DNA of 64,000 bases from a phage, in the sequence record NC_101842.1; one strand, 5' to 3'. The position numbers were made by a program, and so were the translations under genes. This document shows, piece by piece, positions 17,474-35,065 of the stretch. Numbering within the stretch: the stretch's first letter is position 1; every line of letters begins with the position of its first letter. The notes under the pieces were generated by a model. That model had not been told where the DNA came from. It worked only from the letters and a program-made list of their open reading frames with translations, and searched no databases.

Positions 17474-17839
17474 ATGGAACAAATGAACGATCAAGCGTCG
17501 GTTGCGATGAACGAGCAAGAACAACCTCAAGAATTTTTCTTAGGGTTAAGTAAAGATCAAGTGTCTCTTCTGCTAGTGCTTTCTTCTTTCATGGGAAGAC
17601 TTCAGGAGCTCACACAACAACCAGAGGCTGAACAATTATTTCAAGCTCTGCGTGAAGAAGAAAAATATCGTCGTTTGGACTATGCCTTAGGTTGGGTAGC
17701 TCAACAACGAGATATGCTGATGGCCCTCTCTGGGACCACAAGTTTTGCAATGGGGCTGTTGGCTCAAGTTCAGGACAAATTAATTCAAGCAGGGTTTGCA
17801 CACACGGCAAACACTAACGAAGAACAAGGAGACAAATAA
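17474..17839 (+). CDS. hypothetical protein
   Basis: GGAGA RBS; Q/E-rich. Confidence 0.6.
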   Translation: MEQMNDQASVAMNEQEQPQEFFLGLSKDQVSLLLVLSSFMGRLQELTQQPEAEQLFQALREEEKYRRLDYALGWVAQQRDMLMALSGTTSFAMGLLAQVQDKLIQAGFAHTANTNEEQGDK

Positions 17840-19065
17840 TGAGCGTTATTCAACAATTCGCTAACCCGATGAATCCGCGTGAAACTGTTTTACTGGCTCA
17901 CGGCATGATTAAACGTGTCAGCATCAAGCCTATCAAAGGTGCTGATCCTACAACAGGTATTAAAACCACTGTGTGGCAAGGTAAGAAAATTGAATCCAGC
18001 CACACCATCTCTTTACTGATTTCTGAACTGGATTCCTCTGATAACCTGCTTCAAAGTGGTGAAGAAGTTTGGATCAGCATGGGTGATAAGCTGCTTAAAC
18101 CTGGTCATCAAGACTCTGTCTCTGTTAAAATTGATGACAAGTGGGAAACCGTAACGCCGGGATGGATCGTAAATATCCCTTTGAAGGCAAACGAGCATAA
18201 CGGTAAGACCTATTACAAAGGCTCACTGGCTAAGATGGTCAAGCTGGGTGCAGGAGAGGCTCCAGCAGCGACTCAGCAGCAAAAACAGCAACAAGGTGCA
18301 CAATCACAAGGCCAGAAGCAGAAACCTCAGCAGAATGCCAATCAGGACGTTTTACGCATCTATGGCGATGTGACTCAGATTGTTGGCAACGTGGTTACTG
18401 TTAATGACCACAAGATTGGCGAAGGTGCTATGGTTGTAACTGATGAGCAGCTTAAAGACCTGGTGGTAGGTGGTCGTGTTGCAGCCATTGTTGACAAAGA
18501 CACCGGAAACATTATCAGTGGTTTCAAAGCCTATCCCCCTAAGGCAGAGAACGGCACTCAAGGCTCCGGTGGCAAGCGTAAATCCTCTTACGACCCTATC
18601 GGTGTGGAAACGGGGCATAGCATCAATGCGTTGCAGATCATCCTGGATCGCGGGTTTAAGGTAGACGACCCACTGGGCGTGGCTAAAACACTGCACGTAG
18701 TCACCATTGAGCTTAAGAAAGAGTATGCTCAAGCCACCAACCGAACTGAAGATGAAGTAGGTGCCAGTGTCGGTAATGCGGTGTTGAACGCTTGTCGCCG
18801 TATTGACAAGAAAACGAAAGTTGATGATTTTGCAGCGGCAATTACTGCAGAAGCAAAAGATGTCTTGACTAATCTGGCTGAACCGTTGTACGATTGGATC
18901 AAGAACGGTGCTGGGTCAACTGACTATCAAGAACCCCAGGCTGCCAAACAGGAAGCAGCTCCACAGCAAAACACTGTAGACGCTCCTCCTGTAAATGATG
19001 AGGAAGATGACCCAATGGATCAGAATCCAGCACAGTATACCTTTGATGATGACATCCCTTTTTAA
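17839..19065 (+). CDS. putative ssDNA-binding protein with SSB-like acidic C-terminal tip
   Basis: Ends ...FDDDIPF, identical in the last residues to E. coli SSB; Q-rich low-complexity linker; sits in the replication module; AAGGAGA RBS. Confidence 0.55.
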   Translation: MSVIQQFANPMNPRETVLLAHGMIKRVSIKPIKGADPTTGIKTTVWQGKKIESSHTISLLISELDSSDNLLQSGEEVWISMGDKLLKPGHQDSVSVKIDDKWETVTPGWIVNIPLKANEHNGKTYYKGSLAKMVKLGAGEAPAATQQQKQQQGAQSQGQKQKPQQNANQDVLRIYGDVTQIVGNVVTVNDHKIGEGAMVVTDEQLKDLVVGGRVAAIVDKDTGNIISGFKAYPPKAENGTQGSGGKRKSSYDPIGVETGHSINALQIILDRGFKVDDPLGVAKTLHVVTIELKKEYAQATNRTEDEVGASVGNAVLNACRRIDKKTKVDDFAAAITAEAKDVLTNLAEPLYDWIKNGAGSTDYQEPQAAKQEAAPQQNTVDAPPVNDEEDDPMDQNPAQYTFDDDIPF

Positions 19066-19906: not shown

Positions 19907-20332
19907 ATGATCTATGAAATGCCAAAACTGATTCGTGACGATGCCCAAAACGCTCACACCATTATTATGGGCAAACGCATGGATATTATTTGTCATAAAG
20001 ATTTCTGGGAAGGAAGTTACTTCACAGAGTATTTTGGTAAACTGGACAATGGTCTGCTGATCCAGTTCTACACCGATGCGGAAAACAACATTCCCTGGGA
20101 GTTCGAAACTGAAGATGTCTATAAACTTTTCACCTTCCTCGGTATTAAGGTTAAGGCCAAGTTTGAAGAAGGTGAGTGCGACGATTGTGGATTTTATGAG
20201 GTAACAGATTTCTACCTTCCTAGCGGTAAGAACCTTTACTATGAAAGCCACTTCGGTAACTCCAATATGCCACAGTGCTGGACTGAGTTTTTTGAAATTG
20301 CGGAAGAGGAGCTGGCTTACCGTGATTATTGA
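19907..20332 (+). CDS. hypothetical protein
   Basis: CAGGAGA RBS; directly upstream of, and overlapping, the macro-domain gene. Confidence 0.6.
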   Translation: MIYEMPKLIRDDAQNAHTIIMGKRMDIICHKDFWEGSYFTEYFGKLDNGLLIQFYTDAENNIPWEFETEDVYKLFTFLGIKVKAKFEEGECDDCGFYEVTDFYLPSGKNLYYESHFGNSNMPQCWTEFFEIAEEELAYRDY

Positions 20333-20780
20333 TACTGTAGAGGGAGATTTAATCTCCCTTTTTAAGAGCGGTGCTGGTCACCTGATCCACGGTTGTAACT
20401 GCTTCCACACAATGGGCAAGGGTATAGCAAAACAGATTGCCCGTGAGTTTCCTCAAGCACTGTCAGCCGACAAAGAGACTAGATACGGTTGCCTAAGTAA
20501 ACTGGGTGCGTTCTCCCGATGGGAGCACTTATCTCCGATAGGTATTGTCTACGGAATCAATCTATATACCCAGTTCTACCCAGGACCTAATGCTGAGTAT
20601 TTCTCAATCCTGAAAGGCTTTGAGCTAGTCAATGAAGTATTCAGCGGATCGACTTTACCATTCTACATCCCTAAGATCGGGTGCGGCATAGGCGGTTTGA
20701 AGTGGGAACACGTAGAGGACGTTATTAACCTTGCCACTTTCGACATAGATATTGTCGTGGTGGAGTACAAAAAGTGTTGA
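20322..20780 (+). CDS. macro-domain protein, TARG1/OARD1-like (putative ADP-ribose hydrolase)
   Basis: Motif HLIHGCNCFHTMGKGIAKQIAREF resembles the macro-domain fingerprint of the TARG1/DarG-type branch; probable GTG start at ~20322 overlapping upstream stop. Confidence 0.7.
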   Translation: MIIDTVEGDLISLFKSGAGHLIHGCNCFHTMGKGIAKQIAREFPQALSADKETRYGCLSKLGAFSRWEHLSPIGIVYGINLYTQFYPGPNAEYFSILKGFELVNEVFSGSTLPFYIPKIGCGIGGLKWEHVEDVINLATFDIDIVVVEYKKC

Positions 20781-21031
20781 CGACCATCTTCTGAGGTGAT
20801 ATAGTTTCCACGACAACTAAGAGAGGAGAGCACTGTGGAGACTAAAATCTTAATTCTTGCTGTGGTAGATACAACCGAAGGAGCTATATTCGAATCTGCA
20901 GGAGGGTATTTCTACCTACCATACGGAAAAAGAACTTCCGAGCCAAGTAAAGATTCAATCCTCAAAGTGTTCCCGTGTGCTTTCTGGCTGGAGATTTTGG
21001 TATAAGATTGCAGAGGATTTGGGAGAGAATT

Positions 21032-21226
21032 ATGAGAAACAAGAAAGAACTTTACTCCGGTGAGTGGATCAACGATCAACAGGTGGGAGAGGTAACCTGC
21101 TTCCGATGTTTTACCAGGTACAATCTTAAAACTGCACCAAAAAGTGTTCCAAAGACTGACGGTTACTACATAAAAGAACCTCATTGCCCAAAATGTAAAT
21201 GCCGATTGTACTGGAGCAATCTGTAA
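21032..21226 (+). CDS. small zinc-ribbon protein
   Basis: CxxC...CxxC (CFRC...CPKC); GGGAGAGAA RBS; track ORF 20975-21226 trimmed. Confidence 0.5.
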   Translation: MRNKKELYSGEWINDQQVGEVTCFRCFTRYNLKTAPKSVPKTDGYYIKEPHCPKCKCRLYWSNL

Positions 21227-21230
21227 GAGG

Positions 21231-21258
21231 TTGACATCTGAAAACTGCAGTGTATAAT
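21231..21258 (+). promoter_or_regulatory. sigma70 consensus promoter
   Basis: TTGACA, 16-nt spacer, TATAAT, upstream of the ORF at 21290. Confidence 0.55.
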
Positions 21259-21289
21259 ATACGCATAAACTAACAGAGGGTGATGTATT

Positions 21290-21481
21290 ATGGTAATTTT
21301 TAACCGGGATGGTATCATAGTTAGACAGCACCCGTTCCTTGAATACTATCAAATTGAGCAATGGTGCTACGGGGATTGCAGTCACTCCTATGGGCAAAGT
21401 TGGGGATATCGTACAGTTTTTGAATCCACAGACCTTGACAAAGTAAAACAGAAAGTTTTAGAACTTCTTAACAACAAGTGA
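21290..21481 (+). CDS. hypothetical protein
   Basis: AGAGGG RBS downstream of consensus promoter. Confidence 0.55.
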   Translation: MVIFNRDGIIVRQHPFLEYYQIEQWCYGDCSHSYGQSWGYRTVFESTDLDKVKQKVLELLNNK

Positions 21482-21491
21482 GTATCGTGCC

Positions 21492-21824
21492 ATGGTAACA
21501 TTGGAAAGACGTAAAGCTATTGCCGCCACACTGGCAGACATCTTTTGGGATTGTAATTTAAAATCTACCCGAAATTGTGGTGCATCTGTAGATGTATTAT
21601 TCCCACGGCCTACTATTGTTGCAATGGGCAACCTGCTCGATGTGGTATATGGAGCATGGGACAAGGAAGGTGGATTCTATATCTGGCAACCTGACTACGG
21701 GACTTGGAAAGAGGTTAGTGGTTCTTCGGACTTCACTCCTGCAGTGGCTAAAATGGATGGCTGGAAAATCTATGTCGGTAACGACATGGAACTGAAAGGC
21801 GAAATTGTTTACTGGTTACCTTAA
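21492..21824 (+). CDS. hypothetical protein
   Basis: ORF in same-strand array; weak RBS. Confidence 0.5.
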   Translation: MVTLERRKAIAATLADIFWDCNLKSTRNCGASVDVLFPRPTIVAMGNLLDVVYGAWDKEGGFYIWQPDYGTWKEVSGSSDFTPAVAKMDGWKIYVGNDMELKGEIVYWLP

Positions 21825-21845
21825 GAAAGTCCAGGAGATAAAGTT

Positions 21846-22091
21846 ATGAACAAAGGGTGGACATTTGTAGACGGCGTTAAAAACATGCCTCTAGGAAAGT
21901 ATATTGTAGCCATGGCAGATGAGAATGGCAAGGTTGATTTCGGAGTTTGCGAGGTTGTTCTTGCAGGATCTGGTGACTATGCTCACAAAACTGGGATAAT
22001 TAACGGTCATTTCTACTTTGATTACAACCCTGTTGTGGCGTATATGGCTATGCCAGAGTTCGAGCTCCCAAAGGAAGGTGCAGATGTTTAA
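21846..22091 (+). CDS. hypothetical protein
   Basis: CAGGAGA RBS. Confidence 0.6.
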   Translation: MNKGWTFVDGVKNMPLGKYIVAMADENGKVDFGVCEVVLAGSGDYAHKTGIINGHFYFDYNPVVAYMAMPEFELPKEGADV

Positions 22092-22156
22092 GCTTAAATC
22101 TGCATGGAACATCGCTGTGGGGGGACGAGATCCGTATCCCAGGTGGAAAGACCATT

Positions 22157-22282
22157 ATGAAAATATCTCGTATCGAGTACGAAGGTGATCGTGTATTTCA
22201 TATCTTTGCAGAAGATGGTCGAGAAATTTATATACAGGCAGGCTCTCACATCTATATTCGTAAGAAAGGGGAGGACAAATGA
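22157..22282 (+). CDS. small hypothetical protein (41 aa)
   Basis: Not in ORF track (<60 aa); GGTGGAAAG RBS; stop overlaps next start (ATGA). Confidence 0.4.
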   Translation: MKISRIEYEGDRVFHIFAEDGREIYIQAGSHIYIRKKGEDK

Positions 22283-22608
22283 CAGAGATCATCATTTCAA
22301 CTGCAGGGTATGTATTCCTGACAATCATTGCGCTGGCTATTCTGGTGGCGGTGTATGGATTTGTTATCCTTCCTATCCTTGAGACATTTAGTTTGTGTCG
22401 GTGTTGGAGAAAAGCTTACGGTCCACAACCATGGAAGGACTGGCCCCACCTGGTGCGCTTAGCGTTCTCTTATGCTTACGATCACTCCAGTAGTGCATGC
22501 ATAACCGGATACCACGCCCACAACTGGAGCTGGGAAGGGTTGAGGAAATGGAATGTTACAAAGACCATACCTCTGCGCATGTACAAACCTAAAAACAAAG
22601 ACAACTGA
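22279..22608 (+). CDS. membrane protein (hypothetical)
   Basis: N-terminal hydrophobic helix YVFLTIIALAILVAVYGFVILPIL; GGGGAGG RBS. Confidence 0.6.
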   Translation: MTEIIISTAGYVFLTIIALAILVAVYGFVILPILETFSLCRCWRKAYGPQPWKDWPHLVRLAFSYAYDHSSSACITGYHAHNWSWEGLRKWNVTKTIPLRMYKPKNKDN

Positions 22609-23220
22609 TACTTGAAAATTCCTGGCATATCAAGTATAAGGGGGATTTCTAAAATGGATTTCCTCCTTTTGATATTTCACCGGGCTGGATATTTTAAAAT
22701 TCTTAGAAAATCAGAAAATGGATCGAAAACTAAAATGGATTTTTCAGAGTAGGCGCGACAAGCTGAATAACTCATCCTATCGTTTGCACCATATTCCAGG
22801 CCACCATTATAGATTTCCCACACATGCTAACCTCCCTCTACTAGAACTTCCTCCACTTACCCTTGACCTTCTATGGTAACAATCTAACCGCTATCTTGAA
22901 GTTGCGGTGCAGCTTTCCAGGTACTCGATCTACTTTTCATTTCAGGGCTTGGATTTTCTGAAAATTTTTCTCGATAAATTTCTCAGTACTCGATCTGTTT
23001 TTCGTTTTCTGAATCGGATTTTCTGGAAATCGTTCCGGCTCTCAACCTGAAATTTTTGGGGACGAAATCGATTTTTCGTTTTCAGAAATGGATTTTTAAA
23101 ATTTCTATATGGGAATATTTTAGTGGATACTATTTTATAGTAAATTGTTACGGAGGGTAATTAGCGTGCTAATTAAATTTATTAAATGCGAGGAGTTCTC
23201 ATTTAGAATCTTGAATGATA
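22609..23220. repeat. non-coding repeat region: ~66-bp imperfect tandem duplication plus AAATGGAT motifs
   Basis: GTACTCGATCT at ~22921 and ~22987; GGATTTTCTGAAAAT / GGATTTTCTGGAAAT; AAATGGAT at ~22651, 22715, 22732, 23086; no ORFs. Confidence 0.6.
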
Positions 23221-23425
23221 ATCATTCTCGTTTGCAGAATAACGGGCAGGCCCGGTGATTGTCTCCCGGCCCCTGTTGCCCCGGCTTGTTATTATAGTAT
23301 CACACAGGACAAAGAAAGCAAGGATTTTTTTTGCATAAATTTTTAAATGATAATGATAACCGTTCTCATTTTATGCAGCGCTCATCCCTGGTGGTTGTCT
23401 CCCCCGTCACCGGTGCCTGCCGTCC
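23215..23425. repeat. two direct copies of a GC-rich element with GTCTCCC core
   Basis: GGCAGGCCCGGTGATTGTCTCCCGGCCCC (~23245) and GGTGGTTGTCTCCCCCGTCACCGGTGCCTGCCGT (~23390), each preceded by GATAATNATT...CTC. Confidence 0.5.
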
Positions 23426-23623
23426 TTTCGATAGGTATATTGTGCCACCTGTCGGGGCCGCTGTCAACACTTTTCAAAAAATTTTTCTAACCTGATGCGC
23501 TAACCGCTGCAACCTGGCAGGGCCAGCCTGGCAGGACCTAACTGACCAGGTGGGAGAGGGTGAAATCTTGCAAACCTGGTAGGCCCATGCTGTAGGGTAA
23601 ACAATTGAAGAGGAGGTACAAAA

Positions 23624-23656
23624 ATGAAAGGTAATGCTACTCACCTGGAAATGTAG
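23624..23656 (+). other. 10-codon mini-ORF with strong SD (possible leader peptide)
   Basis: GAAGAGGAGG, 7 nt, then ATG AAA GGT AAT GCT ACT CAC CTG GAA ATG TAG. Confidence 0.25.
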
Positions 23657-23756
23657 TGATTAATGATACAGAAGCGCGGGAACATAAAGAAGAGTACGAA
23701 AAAATGGTGGTTAACCTGGCGGGGGGCTCTATCATAAAAATAATTTAAAATAATCG

Positions 23757-23785
23757 TTGACAACAAGGTTAATCATGGTATTATT
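23757..23785 (+). promoter_or_regulatory. sigma70-like promoter
   Basis: TTGACA then TATTAT-like -10 with 16-17-nt spacing. Confidence 0.5.
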
Positions 23786-23834
23786 ACCCTACAAGGTGAA
23801 CAACACCGCACTAACCAGTAAAGAGGATAAATTT

Positions 23835-24032
23835 ATGAACGCATACGGGATCAAAGTACGTCGCAACACTCGCCAGGTGGTCACCGATCAAATGGTTTGC
23901 CAGGTGGACGTAACCATCAACAACGGGCAAGGCCTTTATAAATTCCGTCGCGGTCATAGCTATACCCTGCAACAGCTTAACCGTTGCGCCCTGACAAAAG
24001 GTCAGATCAACCACTGGTTTAATAAAAAATAA
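23835..24032 (+). CDS. small basic hypothetical protein
   Basis: ATG after AAGAGGATAAA RBS; track ORF 23757-24032 trimmed. Confidence 0.55.
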   Translation: MNAYGIKVRRNTRQVVTDQMVCQVDVTINNGQGLYKFRRGHSYTLQQLNRCALTKGQINHWFNKK

Positions 24033-24034
24033 TG

Positions 24035-24063
24035 TTGACATATGGTCTGACACAAAATACACT
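24035..24063 (+). promoter_or_regulatory. sigma70-like promoter
   Basis: TTGACA, 17-nt spacer, TACACT. Confidence 0.55.
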
Positions 24064-24095
24064 GAAATCGCAAAAGACACTAAGAGGATAAAATC

Positions 24096-24494
24096 ATGAA
24101 AACCACTACCTTTAATTTTGATAATGCGGACTTTTCTTTTTCTGATGTCAAGAACTGCCGCCGTGATCGTGGATTTTACAAGGCTTATAATCTGGTGGGC
24201 CTGGACGATGACAATAATTTGCACGAAGTAGCTGAGATCCGGTATTATGCCGCCGCCAGCGGGAACACTCACTACTGCGTGTTTTGGATTCACGACAACA
24301 AGAACAATAAGTACGGTTATACTGGCGGCAAGGCGAGCGGTCACGGTTACGATAAAGCTAACGCAGCACTTGAGAGCGCATTAAATGCTATGGGGATCAC
24401 TGCCGACGGCTGGATCTACGAAGAAGAGTTTTTGTCGGCACTTGCTGACCACCTGGGCTATAAAAAACACATTGTAACATGCGCCCACGAATAA
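24096..24494 (+). CDS. hypothetical protein
   Basis: AAGAGGATAAAATC RBS downstream of promoter. Confidence 0.65.
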   Translation: MKTTTFNFDNADFSFSDVKNCRRDRGFYKAYNLVGLDDDNNLHEVAEIRYYAAASGNTHYCVFWIHDNKNNKYGYTGGKASGHGYDKANAALESALNAMGITADGWIYEEEFLSALADHLGYKKHIVTCAHE

Positions 24495-24499
24495 AAATC

Positions 24500-24556
24500 A
24501 TTGACACGCTGCAAAATTTAAGTAAACTAGACACAAAAGGCGGGAATGTTTCCCGC
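24500..24556 (+). promoter_or_regulatory. sigma70-like promoter plus 5'-UTR GC hairpin
   Basis: TTGACA, 16 nt, TAAACT; then hairpin GGCGGGAATGTTTCCCGCC before the RBS. Confidence 0.5.
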
Positions 24557-24576
24557 CAGCACAAAGGAAAAAGATC

Positions 24577-24972
24577 ATGAATAAGAACGTACGCCGCATC
24601 ATGAACGAACTGGCAAACGATGAAAAAATTATTGATATGCATTTGGTCAACATTTGCCGCCGTTGTGTAACATATAACAACCGCGCCGCAAAAGCGCGTG
24701 AGATGAACGCAAAAGGCACCTTAAAGCCCTTTCAGGTGGTTGTAAAATCTATAACTAGCGCAGCAGGCCAGGCGCAGGACCACAACAACGAGAGCGCTAA
24801 TATTGATCCGTCTTACGTAATGAAACGGATCCGGACTTGCAAGAATAAAGAGCAGGTATATAACGTCATAGATTGGCTGGACTCCCTGGGCGATGTGGTT
24901 TACAATAGGTTTTCTGCAGCTATCGAGATCCAGCTTGACAGATTGGACGGGAAAGTGCTAAAAACTTATTGA
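24577..24972 (+). CDS. hypothetical protein
   Basis: AAAGGAAAAAG RBS. Confidence 0.65.
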   Translation: MNKNVRRIMNELANDEKIIDMHLVNICRRCVTYNNRAAKAREMNAKGTLKPFQVVVKSITSAAGQAQDHNNESANIDPSYVMKRIRTCKNKEQVYNVIDWLDSLGDVVYNRFSAAIEIQLDRLDGKVLKTY

Positions 24973-24973
24973 G

Positions 24974-25019
24974 TTTATTTTTAGATGGCCTTGACACCAG
25001 GGCCATCAATAAAGTAAAC
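24974..25019 (+). promoter_or_regulatory. repeated palindromic promoter element, copy 1
   Basis: TTTATTTTTAGATGGCC-TTGACACCAG-GGCCATCAATAAAGTAAAC; TTGACA sits in the loop of the GATGGCC/GGCCATC inverted repeat. Confidence 0.5.
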
Positions 25020-25052
25020 TAACCACAGTTGAGCGGAAAAGGAGGCTTAAAG

Positions 25053-25172
25053 ATGAGCACTACACGCCAGCACACAAAGGTAACCATCATCGTTTGCATC
25101 ATTGGGTACATCCTGGCGCAAATGTTGATGGGTAGCGCCAACGGTGTCGCAAAATTTTTCTTAAACTTTTAA
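25053..25172 (+). CDS. small hydrophobic peptide (39 aa)
   Basis: Not in ORF track; AAGGAGG RBS; MSTTRQHTKVTIIVCIIGYILAQMLMGSANGVAKFFLNF. Confidence 0.45.
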   Translation: MSTTRQHTKVTIIVCIIGYILAQMLMGSANGVAKFFLNF

Positions 25173-25225
25173 TTGACAAGCTAACTTAAATCGATATAAT
25201 AAGCACATAAACGGGAAAACTTCCC
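25173..25225 (+). promoter_or_regulatory. sigma70 consensus promoter plus 5'-UTR hairpin
   Basis: TTGACA, 16 nt, TATAAT; hairpin GGGAAAACTTCCC. Confidence 0.6.
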
Positions 25226-25251
25226 AGAACACACAAAAGGAGAAAAACACC

Positions 25252-25593
25252 ATGACTACTATGACCGCCTCAGAAAAAGCTATGCAGATCGCTGAACTGA
25301 AAAAACAGATCGCAGACCTTGAGAATAAGATCGATAACTTTGAAATCGACGAGGACAAGTACGACGAAAACTATGATGAATGGTTAGACGAGATCTACGG
25401 CGAAATTATGATCGGAAACATTTCTTTTCTTCCGTCGCGTATCCTCAAGGAGCTAGATCCTATCGCTTACCGCTGCGGATTTAGCGACTACATCGACAGC
25501 CTGGATATTGAGGACGATGAAGAATACCAGGAATTACAGACAGAGTTAGAAGAAGCAAAAGAAGAGCTTGCGGAGCTGGAAGAAAACGAGTAA
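25252..25593 (+). CDS. acidic coiled-coil hypothetical protein
   Basis: AAAAGGAGAAAA RBS; D/E-rich. Confidence 0.65.
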   Translation: MTTMTASEKAMQIAELKKQIADLENKIDNFEIDEDKYDENYDEWLDEIYGEIMIGNISFLPSRILKELDPIAYRCGFSDYIDSLDIEDDEEYQELQTELEEAKEELAELEENE

Positions 25594-25595
25594 GC

Positions 25596-25640
25596 TTATT
25601 TTTAGATGGCCTTGACACCAGGGCCATCAATAAAGTAAAC
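25596..25640 (+). promoter_or_regulatory. repeated palindromic promoter element, copy 2
   Basis: Near-identical to copy 1. Confidence 0.5.
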
Positions 25641-25682
25641 TTTATACTGTTAACACTGAACTAATGCATAGGAGTTAAAACC

Positions 25683-25928
25683 ATGGCAGCACTAATCACC
25701 AAATATTATGCCCCTACCAACACCAAAAGCGCCCGTATCATGGTAAAAGGCTTCGGACGTAAAAAGGTGTACACCTGGGATTATGCCTTAGACACGGAAG
25801 ACAACTACACCAACGCAATGACCGATTTTATTAATGAACTAAATAAGCAGATCTTGACAAGTTATAAAGTGACCGATATTGCTTATATAGGTGAAGGCGG
25901 GATCTGTTTTGTAGGCATTGTGAAATAG
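25683..25928 (+). CDS. hypothetical protein
   Basis: TAGGAGTTAAAACC RBS. Confidence 0.6.
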   Translation: MAALITKYYAPTNTKSARIMVKGFGRKKVYTWDYALDTEDNYTNAMTDFINELNKQILTSYKVTDIAYIGEGGICFVGIVK

Positions 25929-25976
25929 TTATTTTTTCGGTGGTCCTGGCTGCAGGGCCATCTATAAAGATAATTT
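25929..25976 (+). promoter_or_regulatory. degenerate fourth copy of the palindromic element
   Basis: TTATTTTTTCGGTGGTCC-TGGCTGCA-GGGCCATCTATAAAGATAATTTA. Confidence 0.35.
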
Positions 25977-26002
25977 ATCAACACCATGAAAGGAGAAAGT
26001 AC

Positions 26003-29328: not shown

Positions 29329-29330
29329 AA

Positions 29331-29376
29331 TTTATTTTTAGATGGCCTTGACTCCAGGGCCATCAATAAAGTAAAT
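29331..29376 (+). promoter_or_regulatory. repeated palindromic promoter element, copy 3
   Basis: TTTATTTTTAGATGGCC-TTGACTCCAG-GGCCATCAATAAAGTAAAT. Confidence 0.5.
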
Positions 29377-29422
29377 TTAAACCCTGTTAAATATACCACG
29401 CAGTTAACAAGGAGTGATAGAC

Positions 29423-32530: not shown

Positions 32531-32578
32531 ACGGCAGGCACCTGGCGACGGGGGGAGACAATCACCGGGCCTGCCTGT
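32531..32578. repeat. inverted copy of the GC-rich GTCTCCC element seen at 23.2-23.4 kb
   Basis: GGGAGACAATCACCGGGCCTGCC is the reverse complement of GGCAGGCCCGGTGATTGTCTCCC at ~23245; the left half matches the second 23.4-kb copy. Confidence 0.6.
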
Positions 32579-32601
32579 CATATAAGAACTATAAAAACCG
32601 T

Positions 32602-34295: not shown

Positions 34296-34849
34296 TCATG
34301 TTGTGTCAGTTAGGTCACATTATGTCAGACAAGTTTTTCCCCTCTTTGTCAAGTGCTGCATGAAAAATTTACAAGCTTGTATGGTAGCATTTTTGCGGCC
34401 CTGTTTACATTCAGGAGTGTATGTATAATCCTTGGTGTGTGGGCGTTTAGACGTCTAGACGGTTGGAAGTATGCAGGTCAATATCTAATCTATTGGCTGC
34501 TAACTATATCCCACACAAATGATAAGAAATATAATTGTTATATGCGTAAACTGTAACTCATGTTATCAATCCCTGTATGTATCGCCAGTGGTGCGCATAA
34601 TGGGTATTATGTTAAATTGCCCGTAATGATAACTATTCTCACAATGATAGGTATTCTCATTCACCCCCACAAGATAGGTTGCAAATGTTGTGCCACTGTG
34701 TGAACGGCCTAGCCTATTAATTTGCCTCACTGCCTTGATATTTGAGAATTGTTATAAGAATGAGAAGTATTCCCATTTCGTCCGCCTGGCAGCACTCCTG
34801 TAGGTCAGGTCAAAATCGTGGTAGAATTGGGCCTGTTCAGATATTTCTG

Positions 34850-35065
34850 GCTGACTCTTCAGGTCTGTGTGGGAAAAGCCAACCTCTCCGGCGGGGCATG
34901 GGGTCATGACGGGAAAATTGCAGGTCAATTAAAAAATTTACGTGGTGTATGAAGCGCTCTTCAGGTAAGGCATGTATTATGGGATGAAACCCTCTTCAGG
35001 CAATGATATTTGTGGGTGTGATATTTGCTGGAAAGCCAGATATGACGGGACTCCCGGCGGGGCAG
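34850..35065. repeat. degenerate ~140-bp tandem repeat with CTCTTCAGG and CCGGCGGGGCA motifs
   Basis: CTCTTCAGG at ~34855, 34957, 34992 (also 35406, 36056); CCGGCGGGGCA(T/G)GGG at ~34888 and ~35055; GCAGGTCAAT at ~34473 and ~34920. Confidence 0.5.

What the first reader, a model, noticed from the sequence alone, without database searches (positions are those of the whole stretch)
22609..23220. Repeat-rich non-coding spacer with a ~66-bp tandem duplication and AAATGGAT motifs
About 600 bp without ORFs separate the core-replication block from the small-gene island. They contain a two-copy imperfect tandem repeat (GTACTCGATCT...GGATTTTCTGRAAAT) and four AAATGGAT motifs. This is a candidate regulatory or protein-binding region, or a recombination/module-boundary scar.
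Basis: seen in the sequence. Interest (0 to 1): 0.45.

Follow-up and report, generated by a model that had tools for sequence, protein, structure and literature searches.

The report
Conserved essential non-coding repeat module
The repeat-rich gap in this rV5-like E. coli phage genome is not junk: it belongs to a roughly 0.9-kb non-coding module that is conserved across phage genera, does not tolerate transposon insertions in a close relative, and looks most like the phage's unmapped replication origin.

Summary
The window comes from a Vequintavirus, an rV5-like, ~137-kb E. coli myovirus.

**Observation.** It holds up. No conserved ORF lies in the spacer. Four of the window's five AAATGGAT copies are in it. 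The "two-copy" repeat is really a three-copy array, with units at 22919, 22985 and 23059.

**Conservation.** The repeats evolve 3-8 times slower than synonymous sites. The sequence between the two repeat blocks evolves freely but keeps its length. The same layout recurs in three other genera (Seunavirus, Certrevirus, Mydovirus):
- GATATTT/AAATGG block
- about 236-bp spacer
- three 63-78-bp units
- AT-rich stretch
- palindromic boxes
- leftward promoter

**Supporting evidence.**
- The least stable 100 bp of the whole 64 kb (23087-23186) abuts the third repeat.
- Published transposon data for phage Bas54 (93% identical) show 0 of 11 TA sites hit there, among dozens of dispensable genes.

**Rejected.**
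- The physical genome end maps elsewhere, to about 34328-34786.
- A neutral scar.
- A ToxI-like RNA mimic.

**Best reading** (about 0.4): an iteron-plus-unwinding-element replication origin activated by transcription.

**Rivals.**
- A T5-like DNA-entry stop signal.
- An early-gene regulatory hub.
- An essential micro-ORF.

Nothing here shows function directly.

The parts
22605..22640 (+). Hairpin directly after the stop codon of the upstream CDS (arms 22605-22615 and 22630-22640). The loop is variable and no T-run follows. Role uncertain.
   Evidence: Inverted repeat I13. pi = 0.22. The terminator scan did not call it.
22641..22746 (+). U block, a conserved motif cluster: GGGGGATTTC, AAATGGAT at 22652, 22716 and 22733, and GATATTT at 22671 and 22688.
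   Evidence: pi = 0.055, against 0.176 at synonymous sites. Conservation profile. GATATTT x2-4 followed by AAATGG(A/T)TTT-type motifs recurs in Seunavirus, Certrevirus and Mydovirus; Phapecoctavirus keeps the GATATTT pair. Motif clustering.
22747..22918 (.). Fast-evolving spacer that is constrained in length. It holds the U block and the repeat array at a fixed distance.
   Evidence: pi = 0.25, above synonymous sites. No ORF survives on either strand. The stretch 22640-22925 is 286-287 nt in 20 of 21 sequences. The last GATATTT lies 236-239 bp from the first repeat core in four genera.
22919..22984 (+). Repeat unit R1 (core CTCGATCTACTTTTC ... TTGGATTTTCTG).
   Evidence: pi = 0.10.
22985..23058 (+). 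Repeat unit R2 (core CTCGATCTGTTTTTC ... TCGGATTTTCTG).
   Evidence: pi = 0.07.
23059..23122 (+). ATGGATTTTT). It is the most conserved unit.
   Evidence: Family D1. Cross-genus alignment A1. pi = 0.023. It is closer to CR3 R3 (72%) than to its own R1 (63%).
23087..23186 (.). AT-rich, least stable 100-bp stretch of the whole 64-kb window. Candidate DNA-unwinding element. It contains the perfect palindrome AATTAGCGTGCTAATT at 23159-23174.
   Evidence: Nearest-neighbour stability z = 3.9, GC 0.23, rank 1 of the window. In Bas54, 0 of 11 TA sites in bas54_0101 (about window 23097-23158) carry insertions.
23185..23232 (.). Two 19-bp palindromic boxes 29 bp apart (AATGCGAGGAGTTCTCATT and AATGATAATCATTCTCGTT). 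They resemble a Fur box. They straddle the right edge of the reported interval.
   Evidence: the boxes occur only here, at 23352-23370, and inside the terminal repeat. pi = 0.02. Other genera carry 2-4 boxes at 29-bp spacing.
23239..23267 (.). Conserved GC-rich core (…CCCGGTGATTGTCTCCC). A second copy lies at 23387-23403 and an inverted copy at 32553-32581, at the far end of the small-gene island.
   Evidence: DNA-level conservation across genera. No consensus RNA fold was found.
23294..23321 (-). Weak leftward sigma-70-like promoter (TTGCTT-N16-TACTAT). It is inferred mainly from its homologous position to better sites in other genera.
   Evidence: By eye in the window; it is below the scan threshold. 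Homologous sites do pass the scan in GAP31, CR3 and KpS8.
23352..23370 (.). Third palindromic box (AATGATAACCGTTCTCATT). The overlapping 19-mer at 23349-23367 matches the Fur consensus at 16 of 19 positions.
23439..23488 (-). Strong leftward sigma-70-like promoter (TTGACA-N17-TG-CACAAT) preceded by an A/T-rich UP-like element. It points towards the boxes, the AT-rich stretch and the repeats.
   Evidence: 10 of 12 matches, with TG. The UP-like element matches those of island promoters (I2).

Best explanation
The spacer is the left two-thirds of a roughly 0.9-kb, cis-acting, essential non-coding module (about 22640-23490). I think the module is most likely the phage's internal origin of replication.

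**Proposed mechanism (inferred, not shown).**
1. A phage or host initiator binds the duplex repeats: the AAATGG(A/T)TTT and GATATTT sites of the U block, and the three ~65-74-bp R units, each with a ~40-bp core of the form GGnnCTCGATCnnnTTTTC...G(G/T)ATTT.
2. The two protein-bound blocks sit a fixed ~236 bp apart, separated by a spacer whose length matters but whose sequence does not. This suggests a looped or wrapped nucleoprotein complex.
3. The complex melts the adjacent, exceptionally unstable AT-rich stretch (23087-23186).
4. Leftward host-RNAP promoters at 23467-23439 and about 23321-23294 transcribe through the palindromic boxes into this stretch. They give transcriptional activation or a primer, as at lambda, T7 or T4 origins.

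**What is shown.** Non-coding status, selection, cross-genus architecture, lowest duplex stability, and insertion intolerance in a relative.

**What is inferred.** Protein binding, melting, priming, and that replication starts here.
For: 1. **Identity.** The window is a Vequintavirus. The spacer is 82-100% identical in 116 phage records.
2. **Non-coding.**
3. **Selection.** pi is 0.055 in the U block, 0.067 in the R array and 0.023 in R3. It is 0.176 at codon position 3 of the flanking CDS and 0.25 in the intervening spacer.
4. **Conserved architecture.**
   - Exactly three 63-78-bp units with the same core occur in Seunavirus GAP31, Certrevirus CR3 and Mydovirus KpS8.
   - Some cross-genus unit pairs are more alike than units within one genome, so the triplication is ancient.
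   - The U-block-to-R1 distance is 236-239 bp in all four genera.
   - Phapecoctavirus keeps the GATATTT pair, the boxes and the GC core, but has a different AT-rich repeat array. That is what iteron/initiator co-evolution would produce.
5. **Unwinding element.** The least stable 100-bp window of the 64 kb is 23087-23186, directly beside R3.
6. **Essentiality in Bas54 (HIDEN-SEQ, 10.1101/2025.11.20.689424, Extended Data Table 8).**
   - The annotated 'ORFs' over R1-R2 have 1 of 3 TA sites hit, with mean reads of 5 against about 200 in neighbours.
   - Those over R3 and the AT-rich stretch have 0 of 11 hit and are called 'Essential'.
   - Those over the boxes and GC cores have 5 of 15 hit and are called 'strong fitness defect'.
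   - All nine upstream genes (bas54_0091-0099) tolerate insertions (eight called non-essential, one 'reduced fitness'). So do six of the seven downstream (bas54_0104-0109, non-essential); the first downstream gene, bas54_0103, is called 'intermediate' (12 of 14 TA sites hit).
7. **Promoters.** All promoter-like sites in the module point leftward, and they sit at homologous positions in three other genera.
8. **Duplex motifs.** The repeat units have no significant single-strand fold, which fits protein-binding sites on duplex DNA.
9. **Packaging is elsewhere.** The other essential cis function, termini and packaging, maps to the terminal repeat at 34328-34786.
Against: - No replication data exist for this phage group: no marker-frequency analysis, 2D gels or origin-cloning assays. 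The rV5 authors could not find an origin by skew.
- No initiator was identified.
- There are no DnaA boxes in the module.
- The position of lowest stability is not strictly conserved in other genera. It falls in the U block or R1 in some of them.
- A/T-tract phasing is only marginal.
- Insertion intolerance is equally expected for any essential cis element or for an essential micro-ORF.
- Per-site transposon counts for the U block and spacer were not available.
- The palindromic boxes and GATATTT clusters also occur in or near the terminal repeat. So the binding factors may serve a function shared with the genome ends rather than initiation.
- The Bas54 data come from a 93%-identical relative, not from this phage.
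Confidence: 0.4

Rival explanations
1. A T5-like 'injection stop' or DNA-entry control signal. The module marks the inner border of a first-entering terminal segment, about 8% of the genome, that carries the small host-takeover genes. It pauses or restarts genome internalisation. The leftward promoters might pull in the rest of the DNA by transcription, as in T7.
For: - The module lies 11.3-12.2 kb from the physical end at 34786, about 8.2-8.9% of a 137-kb genome.
[quoted passage not shown] It holds a conserved order of direct repeats (including 66-bp ones), inverted repeats and palindromes, and is better conserved than the neighbouring ORFs.
- The island between the module and the end consists of small genes with individual sigma-70 promoters, and nearly all are dispensable.
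- Vequintavirinae share daunorubicin hypersensitivity with T5-like phages. This is circumstantial.
Against: - Two-step transfer has never been reported for rV5-like phages, and which end enters first is unknown.
- The paired DnaA boxes that characterise the T5 iss are absent.
- The module is not inside a long terminal repeat; the repeat here is only about 459 bp.
- The island genes are transcribed towards the end, not inward.
- This reading does not explain the extreme AT-rich minimum next to the repeats.
Confidence: 0.15
2. A transcription-control hub or insulator. The repeats and boxes are operator arrays for a phage or host repressor or activator (for example Fur on the palindromic boxes). 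This factor governs the leftward promoters and the boundary between the upstream operon and the early small-gene island. Disrupting it would deregulate toxic early genes or antisense transcription.
For: - Promoter-like sites are conserved.
- Palindromic boxes sit downstream of promoters and have Fur-like sequence.
- The same boxes and GATATTT motifs occur at the other flank of the island, in and near the terminal repeat.
- The GC-rich core is repeated, inverted, at the far end of the island next to a promoter.
Against: - Eight of the nine genes upstream (bas54_0091-0099) and six of the seven downstream (bas54_0104-0109) are individually non-essential in Bas54, and the other two still take insertions at most TA sites. 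So losing control of any one of them should not be lethal.
- Island genes have their own promoters.
- A purely regulatory role does not predict three long units held at a fixed ~236-bp distance from another block, with an unwinding-prone stretch beside them.
Confidence: 0.2
3. An essential small protein or proteins. The 34-codon ORF annotated as bas54_0101 (window 23056-23160) and/or the SD-preceded ORF at 22654 are real micro-genes, and they explain both the conservation and the essentiality.
For: - bas54_0101 is called 'Essential' in HIDEN-SEQ.
- A frame stays open across R3 in four genera.
- ATG 22654 has an AGGAGG/AGGGGG box 9 nt upstream, and its first 30 codons are kept in 18 of 21 sequences.
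Against: - The bas54_0101-like ORF starts with TTG, has no SD, and carries premature stops in 6 of 21 genomes.
- Its conserved part is the repeat core that also occurs in R1 and R2, where it is read in other, broken frames.
- The C-terminal halves are unrelated between genera, and no start codon is conserved there.
- The 22654 ORF is truncated in 3 genomes, varies from 32 to 84 codons, and its variable sites show no third-position excess (9:5:10).
Confidence: 0.08
4. A non-coding RNA locus. One form would be a repeat-encoded decoy like the pseudo-ToxI antitoxin mimic of the related phage phiTE. Another would be a structured sRNA transcribed from the leftward promoters.
For: - Leftward promoters face the region, and no terminator lies between them and the repeats.
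- A relative, phiTE, does encode a repeat-based RNA mimic.
Against: - Rfam finds nothing.
- The repeat units do not fold better than shuffles, and the GC core has no consensus fold.
- There is no similarity to ToxI or pseudo-ToxI. The period is 65-74 nt rather than 36 nt, and phiTE's locus sits beside tRNAs and the terminase gene, which is a different place.
- Copy number is fixed at three in four genera, unlike an expandable decoy.
Confidence: 0.07
5. A neutral spacer or recombination scar, or the physical end of the genome.
For: The spacer lies between gene blocks, and its middle part (22747-22918) evolves at or above the neutral rate.
Against: - Strong purifying selection on the repeats, conserved geometry, and insertion intolerance.
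- The termini map to about 34328-34786.
Confidence: 0.02

Closest known systems
Iteron-plus-DUE replication origins of phages and plasmids (lambda ori; P1 oriR)
   Same: - Several direct repeats and palindromic sites lie next to a markedly AT-rich, easily melted stretch.
- The region is required in cis.
- Nearby transcription is directed at the region.
- Repeat sequence changes with lineage while the layout stays the same.
   Different: - Units are long (63-78 bp, ~40-bp core), and there are only three.
- A second motif block is held about 236 bp away by a length-constrained spacer.
- No DnaA boxes are present.
- No initiator gene overlaps or adjoins the site.
- There is no sequence similarity to any known origin.
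- Origin activity is untested.
Transcription-primed origins (T7 primary origin; T4 oriF/oriG; ColE1)
   Same: Promoter-like sites lie 100-350 bp from an AT-rich unwinding-prone stretch and point at it. The transcript's 5' part would be G-rich.
   Different: - The promoters are host sigma-70 type.
- Repeat arrays and palindromic boxes are interposed between promoter and AT-rich stretch.
- No RNA-DNA junction data exist.
Injection stop signal (iss) region of phage T5 and relatives
   Same: - It is an essential, cis-acting, ~1-kb non-coding region with a conserved order of direct repeats (about 66 bp among them), inverted repeats and palindromes.
- It is better conserved than the adjacent ORFs.
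- It lies about 8% from a genome end, bordering a block of small takeover genes.
   Different: - There are no paired DnaA boxes.
- The module is not inside a ~10-kb terminal repeat.
- No A1/A2-type system was identified.
- Two-step entry is unknown in this group.
pseudo-ToxI repeat locus of Pectobacterium phage phiTE (same subfamily)
   Same: It is a short, non-coding, tandemly repeated element in an rV5-like phage.
   Different: The phiTE repeats are 36 nt, similar to ToxI, variable in copy number, and sit beside tRNA genes near the terminase gene. There is no sequence similarity to the repeats here.

Membership tests
Iteron-type replication origin | Array of direct repeats (iterons) | tested here: met
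   Three R units plus AAATGGAT and GATATTT clusters, all beyond chance and conserved across genera.
Iteron-type replication origin | Adjacent AT-rich DNA-unwinding element | tested here: met
   23087-23186 is the least stable 100-bp window of the 64 kb (z = 3.9, GC 0.23) and abuts R3. In other genera the minimum also lies inside the module, but not always at this spot.
Iteron-type replication origin | Required in cis for phage growth | tested here: inconclusive
   Published Tn-seq on the 93%-identical Bas54 shows 0 of 11, 1 of 3 and 5 of 15 TA sites hit across the homologous DNA, amid genes that nearly all tolerate insertions. Cis versus trans action was not separated, and this exact phage was not tested.
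Iteron-type replication origin | Replication initiates at the site (marker frequency, 2D gels, autonomous or infection-dependent replication of the cloned fragment) | not testable with these tools
   No such data were found in the literature searches.
Iteron-type replication origin | Cognate initiator protein binds the repeats | not testable with these tools
   No initiator was identified. The nearby essential 408-aa protein looks SSB-like rather than initiator-like.
Iteron-type replication origin | DnaA boxes (a feature of many, not all, such origins) | tested here: not met
   No TTWTNCACA in 22600-23520.
Transcription-primed origin (T7/T4/ColE1 type) | Promoter directed into an unwinding-prone stretch | tested here: met
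   Leftward site 23467-23439 matches 10 of 12 positions, with TG. Homologous leftward sites occur in GAP31, CR3 and KpS8. These are consensus matches only.
Transcription-primed origin (T7/T4/ColE1 type) | RNA-to-DNA transition points or R-loop at the site | not testable with these tools
   No transcript or junction mapping is available.
T5-type injection stop signal | Conserved essential non-coding region of ordered direct and inverted repeats about 8% from the entering end | tested here: inconclusive
   The distance to the mapped terminus is 8.2-8.9% and the repeat order is conserved. Which end enters first is unknown.
T5-type injection stop signal | Paired DnaA boxes in inverted-repeat units | tested here: not met
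   No DnaA box in the module (feature as described).
T5-type injection stop signal | Located within a long (~10 kb) terminal repeat; A1/A2 proteins needed for second-step transfer | tested here: not met
   The terminal repeat is about 459 bp and the module lies outside it. A1/A2 homologues were not searched for.
ToxI / pseudo-ToxI antitoxin-mimic repeats | 36-nt tandem repeats similar to ToxI | tested here: not met
   The period is 65-74 nt and there is no significant similarity. The phiTE locus is not syntenic.
Known RNA families (Rfam) | Covariance-model match | tested here: not met
   No hit at E <= 1 in window 21000-26000. Only one chance-level hit appeared in four related loci.
Fur box (palindromic boxes at the edge of the interval) | 19-bp match to GATAATGATAATCATTATC | tested here: inconclusive
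   16 of 19 positions match at 23349-23367, with 0.03 expected by chance. The phage consensus AATGAGAAnnnTTCTCATT differs at one symmetric position per half-site. Binding is untested.

The most novel reading that the evidence does not exclude
The repeat module and the terminal-repeat region share binding motifs: the Fur-box-like palindromes and the GATATTT clusters. Together they bracket the ~11-kb island of dispensable small genes. The most novel reading that the evidence does not exclude is that Vequintavirinae use a T5-like staged genome entry or commitment checkpoint. In that model the module, 8-9% from the end, halts or licenses internalisation. A host metalloregulator (Fur) or a phage factor bound at both sites would couple entry, replication start and end processing.
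Probability: 0.12. Interest if true: 0.8.

Novelty: new member of a known kind. Interest (0 to 1): 0.58.

Why it matters
Vequintavirinae and their relatives (rV5, FV3, PVP-SE1, CR3, phiTE and the phAPEC8-like phages) are widely used as candidates for therapy and biocontrol. Their origin of replication and their early-phase cis elements are nevertheless unknown.

- **Testable locus.** This analysis points to a defined ~0.9-kb non-coding module, with base-level landmarks, that is conserved across genera and experimentally intolerant to insertion.
- **Re-reading of published calls.** It suggests that at least one published 'essential gene of unknown function' (bas54_0101) and one 'strong fitness defect' gene (bas54_0102) are probably cis-acting DNA rather than genes.
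- **Phage engineering.** It tells engineers where not to insert payloads.
- **Experiments.** It gives a concrete target for origin mapping, for origin-based plasmid or satellite tools, and for asking whether these phages stage their DNA entry.

Tried and rejected
- **Physical genome end or coverage break.** Rejected. The terminal repeat maps to about 34328-34786.
- **Known RNA family.** None found. No tRNA or tmRNA.
- **Structured RNA or ssDNA hairpins in the repeats.** z-scores range from +0.6 to -2.0, which is not convincing.
- **Consensus fold of the GC-rich core across seven copies.** Only 4 weak pairs.
- **Protein-coding ORFs on either strand.** Broken in several genomes.
- **ToxI / pseudo-ToxI mimic.** No similarity, and a different locus.
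- **DnaA boxes.** None in the module.
- **A-tract phasing or curvature.** Marginal only.
- **Tandem Repeats Finder.** It missed the array because the copies are too diverged.
- **IMG/VR scan with the flanking protein.** Only 2 loci returned, so relatives were fetched one by one from GenBank records.
- **Per-TA-site HIDEN-SEQ counts for the spacer.** The stored table is cut before 81 kb.
- **Initiator search among upstream ORFs.** No Pfam or PHROG function. The essential 408-aa protein is SSB-like.
- **Literature on origins or transcriptomes of this phage group.** Nothing specific found.
Full report
**What the window is.** The region 22400-23400 matches 121 phage records at 80-100% identity. 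Nearly all are Vequintavirus, the rV5-like E. coli myoviruses of about 137 kb. The best match is phage nomine, 100% identical over the spacer. Sixteen matching records labelled "Campylobacter phage" are near-identical to these coliphages.

**Checking the observation.**
- The spacer starts right after the stop codon of a 109-codon CDS (22279-22608).
- Records annotate different tiny ORFs in it, on different strands.
- I translated each candidate ORF across 21 aligned Vequintavirus sequences. All show lost start codons, frameshifts or internal stops in several genomes. The flanking CDS is intact in 20 of 20.
- One SD-preceded ATG at 22654 keeps about 30 codons in 18 of 21 sequences. However, it is truncated in three, varies from 32 to 84 codons, and shows no third-position excess of variable sites.
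- The repeat is real: GTACTCGATCT occurs at 22921 and 22986, in 57-nt copies that are 74% identical.
- There is a third copy at about 23050-23096, so the array has three units with periods of 65 and 73 nt. TRF missed it.
- AAATGGAT occurs 5 times in the 64 kb, on both strands. Four of these lie in the 612-bp spacer, as do all three exact AAATGGATTT copies.

**Not the genome end.** Two papers report short terminal repeats for vequintaviruses: 459 bp in Gotham and 458 bp in HdK5 and EdH4. Gotham's annotated repeat_region 1-459 and the start of the HdK5 record align to window 34786 running downwards. The terminal repeat is therefore at about 34328-34786, 11-12 kb from the spacer.

**Selection.** Nucleotide diversity over 20 aligned genomes:

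| Segment | pi |
|---|---|
| Flanking CDS, codon position 3 | 0.176 |
| Flanking CDS, codon position 2 | 0.047 |
| U block (22641-22746) | 0.055 |
| Middle segment (22747-22918) | 0.252 |
| Repeat array (whole) | 0.067 |
| R3 | 0.023 |
| Palindromic boxes just to the right | 0.020 |

The sequence between them is free, yet 22640-22925 is 286-287 nt long in 20 of 21 genomes.

**Conservation beyond the genus.**
- The stretch just right of the spacer (about 23169-23331) finds 250 records by blastn. These include Phapecoctavirus, Seunavirus, Certrevirus, Mydovirus and other Klebsiella, Salmonella, Cronobacter, Pectobacterium and Enterobacter phages.
- I fetched four of these loci. Each has a 0.7-1.3-kb stretch at the syntenic place that is ORF-free or carries only short ORFs of doubtful standing.
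- In GAP31, CR3 and KpS8 there are exactly three 63-78-bp direct repeats. They share the core GGnnCTCGATCnnnTTTTC...CG(T/G)ATTT with the window's units.
- Some cross-genus unit pairs are more alike than units within one genome. Examples are GAP31_R2-KpS8_R2 at 88%, and window_R3-CR3_R3 at 72% against window_R3-R1 at 63%. The triplication is therefore old and maintained.
- Upstream, all have 2-4 GATATTT repeats followed by AAATGG(A/T)TTT-type motifs.
- The distance from the last GATATTT to the first repeat core is 236, 238, 236 and 236 bp in the four genera, although the intervening DNA cannot be aligned.
- To the right come 2-4 palindromic boxes (AATGAGAAnnnTTCTCATT) at 29-bp spacing, a GC-rich core, and a leftward sigma-70-like promoter at a homologous position.
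- Phapecoctavirus keeps the GATATTT pair, boxes, core and promoter, but has a different AT-rich repeat array.

**Physical properties.**
- The least stable 100-bp duplex window in the whole 64 kb is 23087-23186 (GC 0.23, z = 3.9). It lies directly beside R3.
- The repeat units do not fold significantly as single strands.
- A/T-tract phasing at 11 bp is only marginal.
- No DnaA box lies in the module.

**Experimental evidence from a relative.** A 2025 preprint (10.1101/2025.11.20.689424) reports saturating Himar1 mutagenesis of Bas54, which is phage MaxBurger. Bas54 is 93% identical over the spacer, and window coordinate equals record coordinate minus 58571. Extended Data Table 8 gives the following:

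| Bas54 feature | Window equivalent | TA sites hit | Call / mean reads |
|---|---|---|---|
| bas54_0099 | flanking CDS | 18 of 21 | non-essential |
| bas54_0100 | 22904-23050 (R1-R2) | 1 of 3 | 5 reads, against about 200 in neighbours |
| bas54_0101 | 23056-23160 (R3 + AT-rich stretch) | 0 of 11 | "Essential" |
| bas54_0102 | 23215-23493 (boxes, GC cores, promoters) | 5 of 15 | "strong fitness defect", 12.7 reads |
| bas54_0103 | about 23630-23806 | 12 of 14 | "Intermediate" |
| bas54_0091-0098 | upstream genes | mostly hit | seven non-essential; bas54_0095 (11 of 15) "reduced fitness" |
| bas54_0104-0109 | downstream genes | mostly hit | non-essential |

Because the three "ORFs" are not conserved as ORFs, the simplest reading is an essential cis-acting element. 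The authors did not comment on this locus. [quoted passage not shown] Per-site counts for the U block and spacer were not in the stored part of the table.

**Interpretation.** The evidence combines:
- direct repeats with conserved number and geometry;
- a sequence-free but length-fixed spacer;
- the most easily melted DNA of the window immediately adjacent;
- palindromic sites;
- promoters aimed at the region;
- a cis-type essentiality signal.

With packaging signals mapped elsewhere, this fits a replication origin best, of the iteron-plus-unwinding-element kind with transcriptional activation (lambda, P1, T7 and T4 are the models). I put this at about 0.4. No step of initiation is shown. The rV5 paper found no origin by skew analysis, and I found no replication mapping for this group.

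**Rivals.**
- **T5-like injection stop signal.** That signal is also an essential, highly conserved non-coding repeat region at 7.9% from the left end. Here the module sits 8.2-8.9% from the mapped end and borders an island of dispensable small genes. But DnaA boxes and a long terminal repeat are lacking, and staged entry is unknown for these phages.
- **Regulatory hub.** This is plausible because the palindromic boxes and GATATTT clusters recur in or next to the terminal repeat. The GC-rich core also recurs, inverted, at the far end of the island. It explains the lethality of insertions less well.
- **Micro-ORF and ncRNA readings.** These are weakened.
- **Neutral scar or genome end.** Excluded.

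**Novelty.** I found no description of this module in the papers held. The rV5 map merely marks a "non-coding" box, which I did not locate in the sequence. If it is the origin, it is a new member of a known kind, with unusual features: long units, a fixed 236-bp spacer, and motifs shared with the terminal repeat.

Noticed in passing
window 34328-34786: By homology to Gotham's annotated 459-bp repeat_region and to the start of the HdK5 record, the physical genome terminus and direct terminal repeat lie here. They sit inside a ~1.5-2-kb non-coding region. Bas54 Tn-seq reports an insertion-free ~2-kb intergenic region that probably corresponds to it.
   Followed up: partly
window 23185-23203, 23214-23232, 23352-23370; 34625-34641, 34643-34659, 34759-34775: 19-bp palindromic boxes (AATGAKAAnnnTTCTCA) occur in only two places in the 64 kb: beside the repeat array, and inside the terminal repeat, where the last box is about 11 nt from the terminus. 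They resemble the E. coli Fur box (16 of 19 positions at 23349-23367). In other genera they appear as 2-4 copies at 29-bp spacing.
   Followed up: partly
window 23239-23267, 23383-23423 (+) and 32553-32581 (-): A conserved GC-rich element (CCYGGTGRTTGTCTCCC) has three copies, each just downstream of a promoter-like site. The third copy is inverted and lies at the far end of the small-gene island, so the island is bracketed by inverted copies. No consensus RNA fold was found.
   Followed up: partly
window 34737-35026: GATATTT motifs, the U-block motif, cluster again at and just beyond the terminal repeat (34737, 34840, 35005, 35020). GATATTT is over-represented in the window as a whole: 27 copies against 12.4 expected.
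   Followed up: no
window 17839-19065 (+): A 408-aa protein of unknown function (phrog_4477). It corresponds by position and length to bas54_0087, which is essential in Bas54; the link was inferred through the same-numbered CarlMeissner gene and not checked by alignment. It has a Gln/Gly/Pro-rich linker and ends in DFDDDIPF, the C-terminal tip of E. coli SSB. It is probably the phage's single-stranded-DNA-binding protein, mimicking the host SSB interaction tail.
   Followed up: partly
window 20241-20780 (+): A 179-aa ORF with a weak Macro-domain match and a strong match to a PHROG annotated as phosphatase.
   Followed up: no
window 24972-25020, 25593-25641, 25927-25975, 29329-29377: A 49-nt element is repeated four times in the small-gene island. 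It combines a GC-rich hairpin with a TTGACA promoter box (AGTTTATTTTTAGATGGCCTTGACACCAGGGCCATC...). It looks like a reused terminator/promoter cassette between early genes.
   Followed up: no
L023 2660-2760; L024 2640-2735; L025 2675-2765; L022 2695-2790: Other genera carry a further highly conserved GC-rich non-coding element right of the module (…CCGGCGATCCACCTTCC…GCCCCGCCTTTTCGCCGTGGGGTGGCG…), ending in a terminator-like hairpin. It has no Rfam match, and I saw no obvious counterpart in the window.
   Followed up: no
GenBank records MG0656xx (hits): Sixteen or more records named 'Campylobacter phage' with host C. jejuni are 94-99% identical to E. coli vequintaviruses over this region. They are unannotated and look mislabelled or contaminated.
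   Followed up: no
window 22654-22752 (+): A small ORF (MDFLLLIFHRAGYFKILRKSENGSKTKMDFSE) with an AGGGGG/AGGAGG box 9 nt upstream overlaps the U-block motifs. Its length varies from 7 to 84 codons among relatives. It is probably spurious, but this is not excluded.
   Followed up: yes
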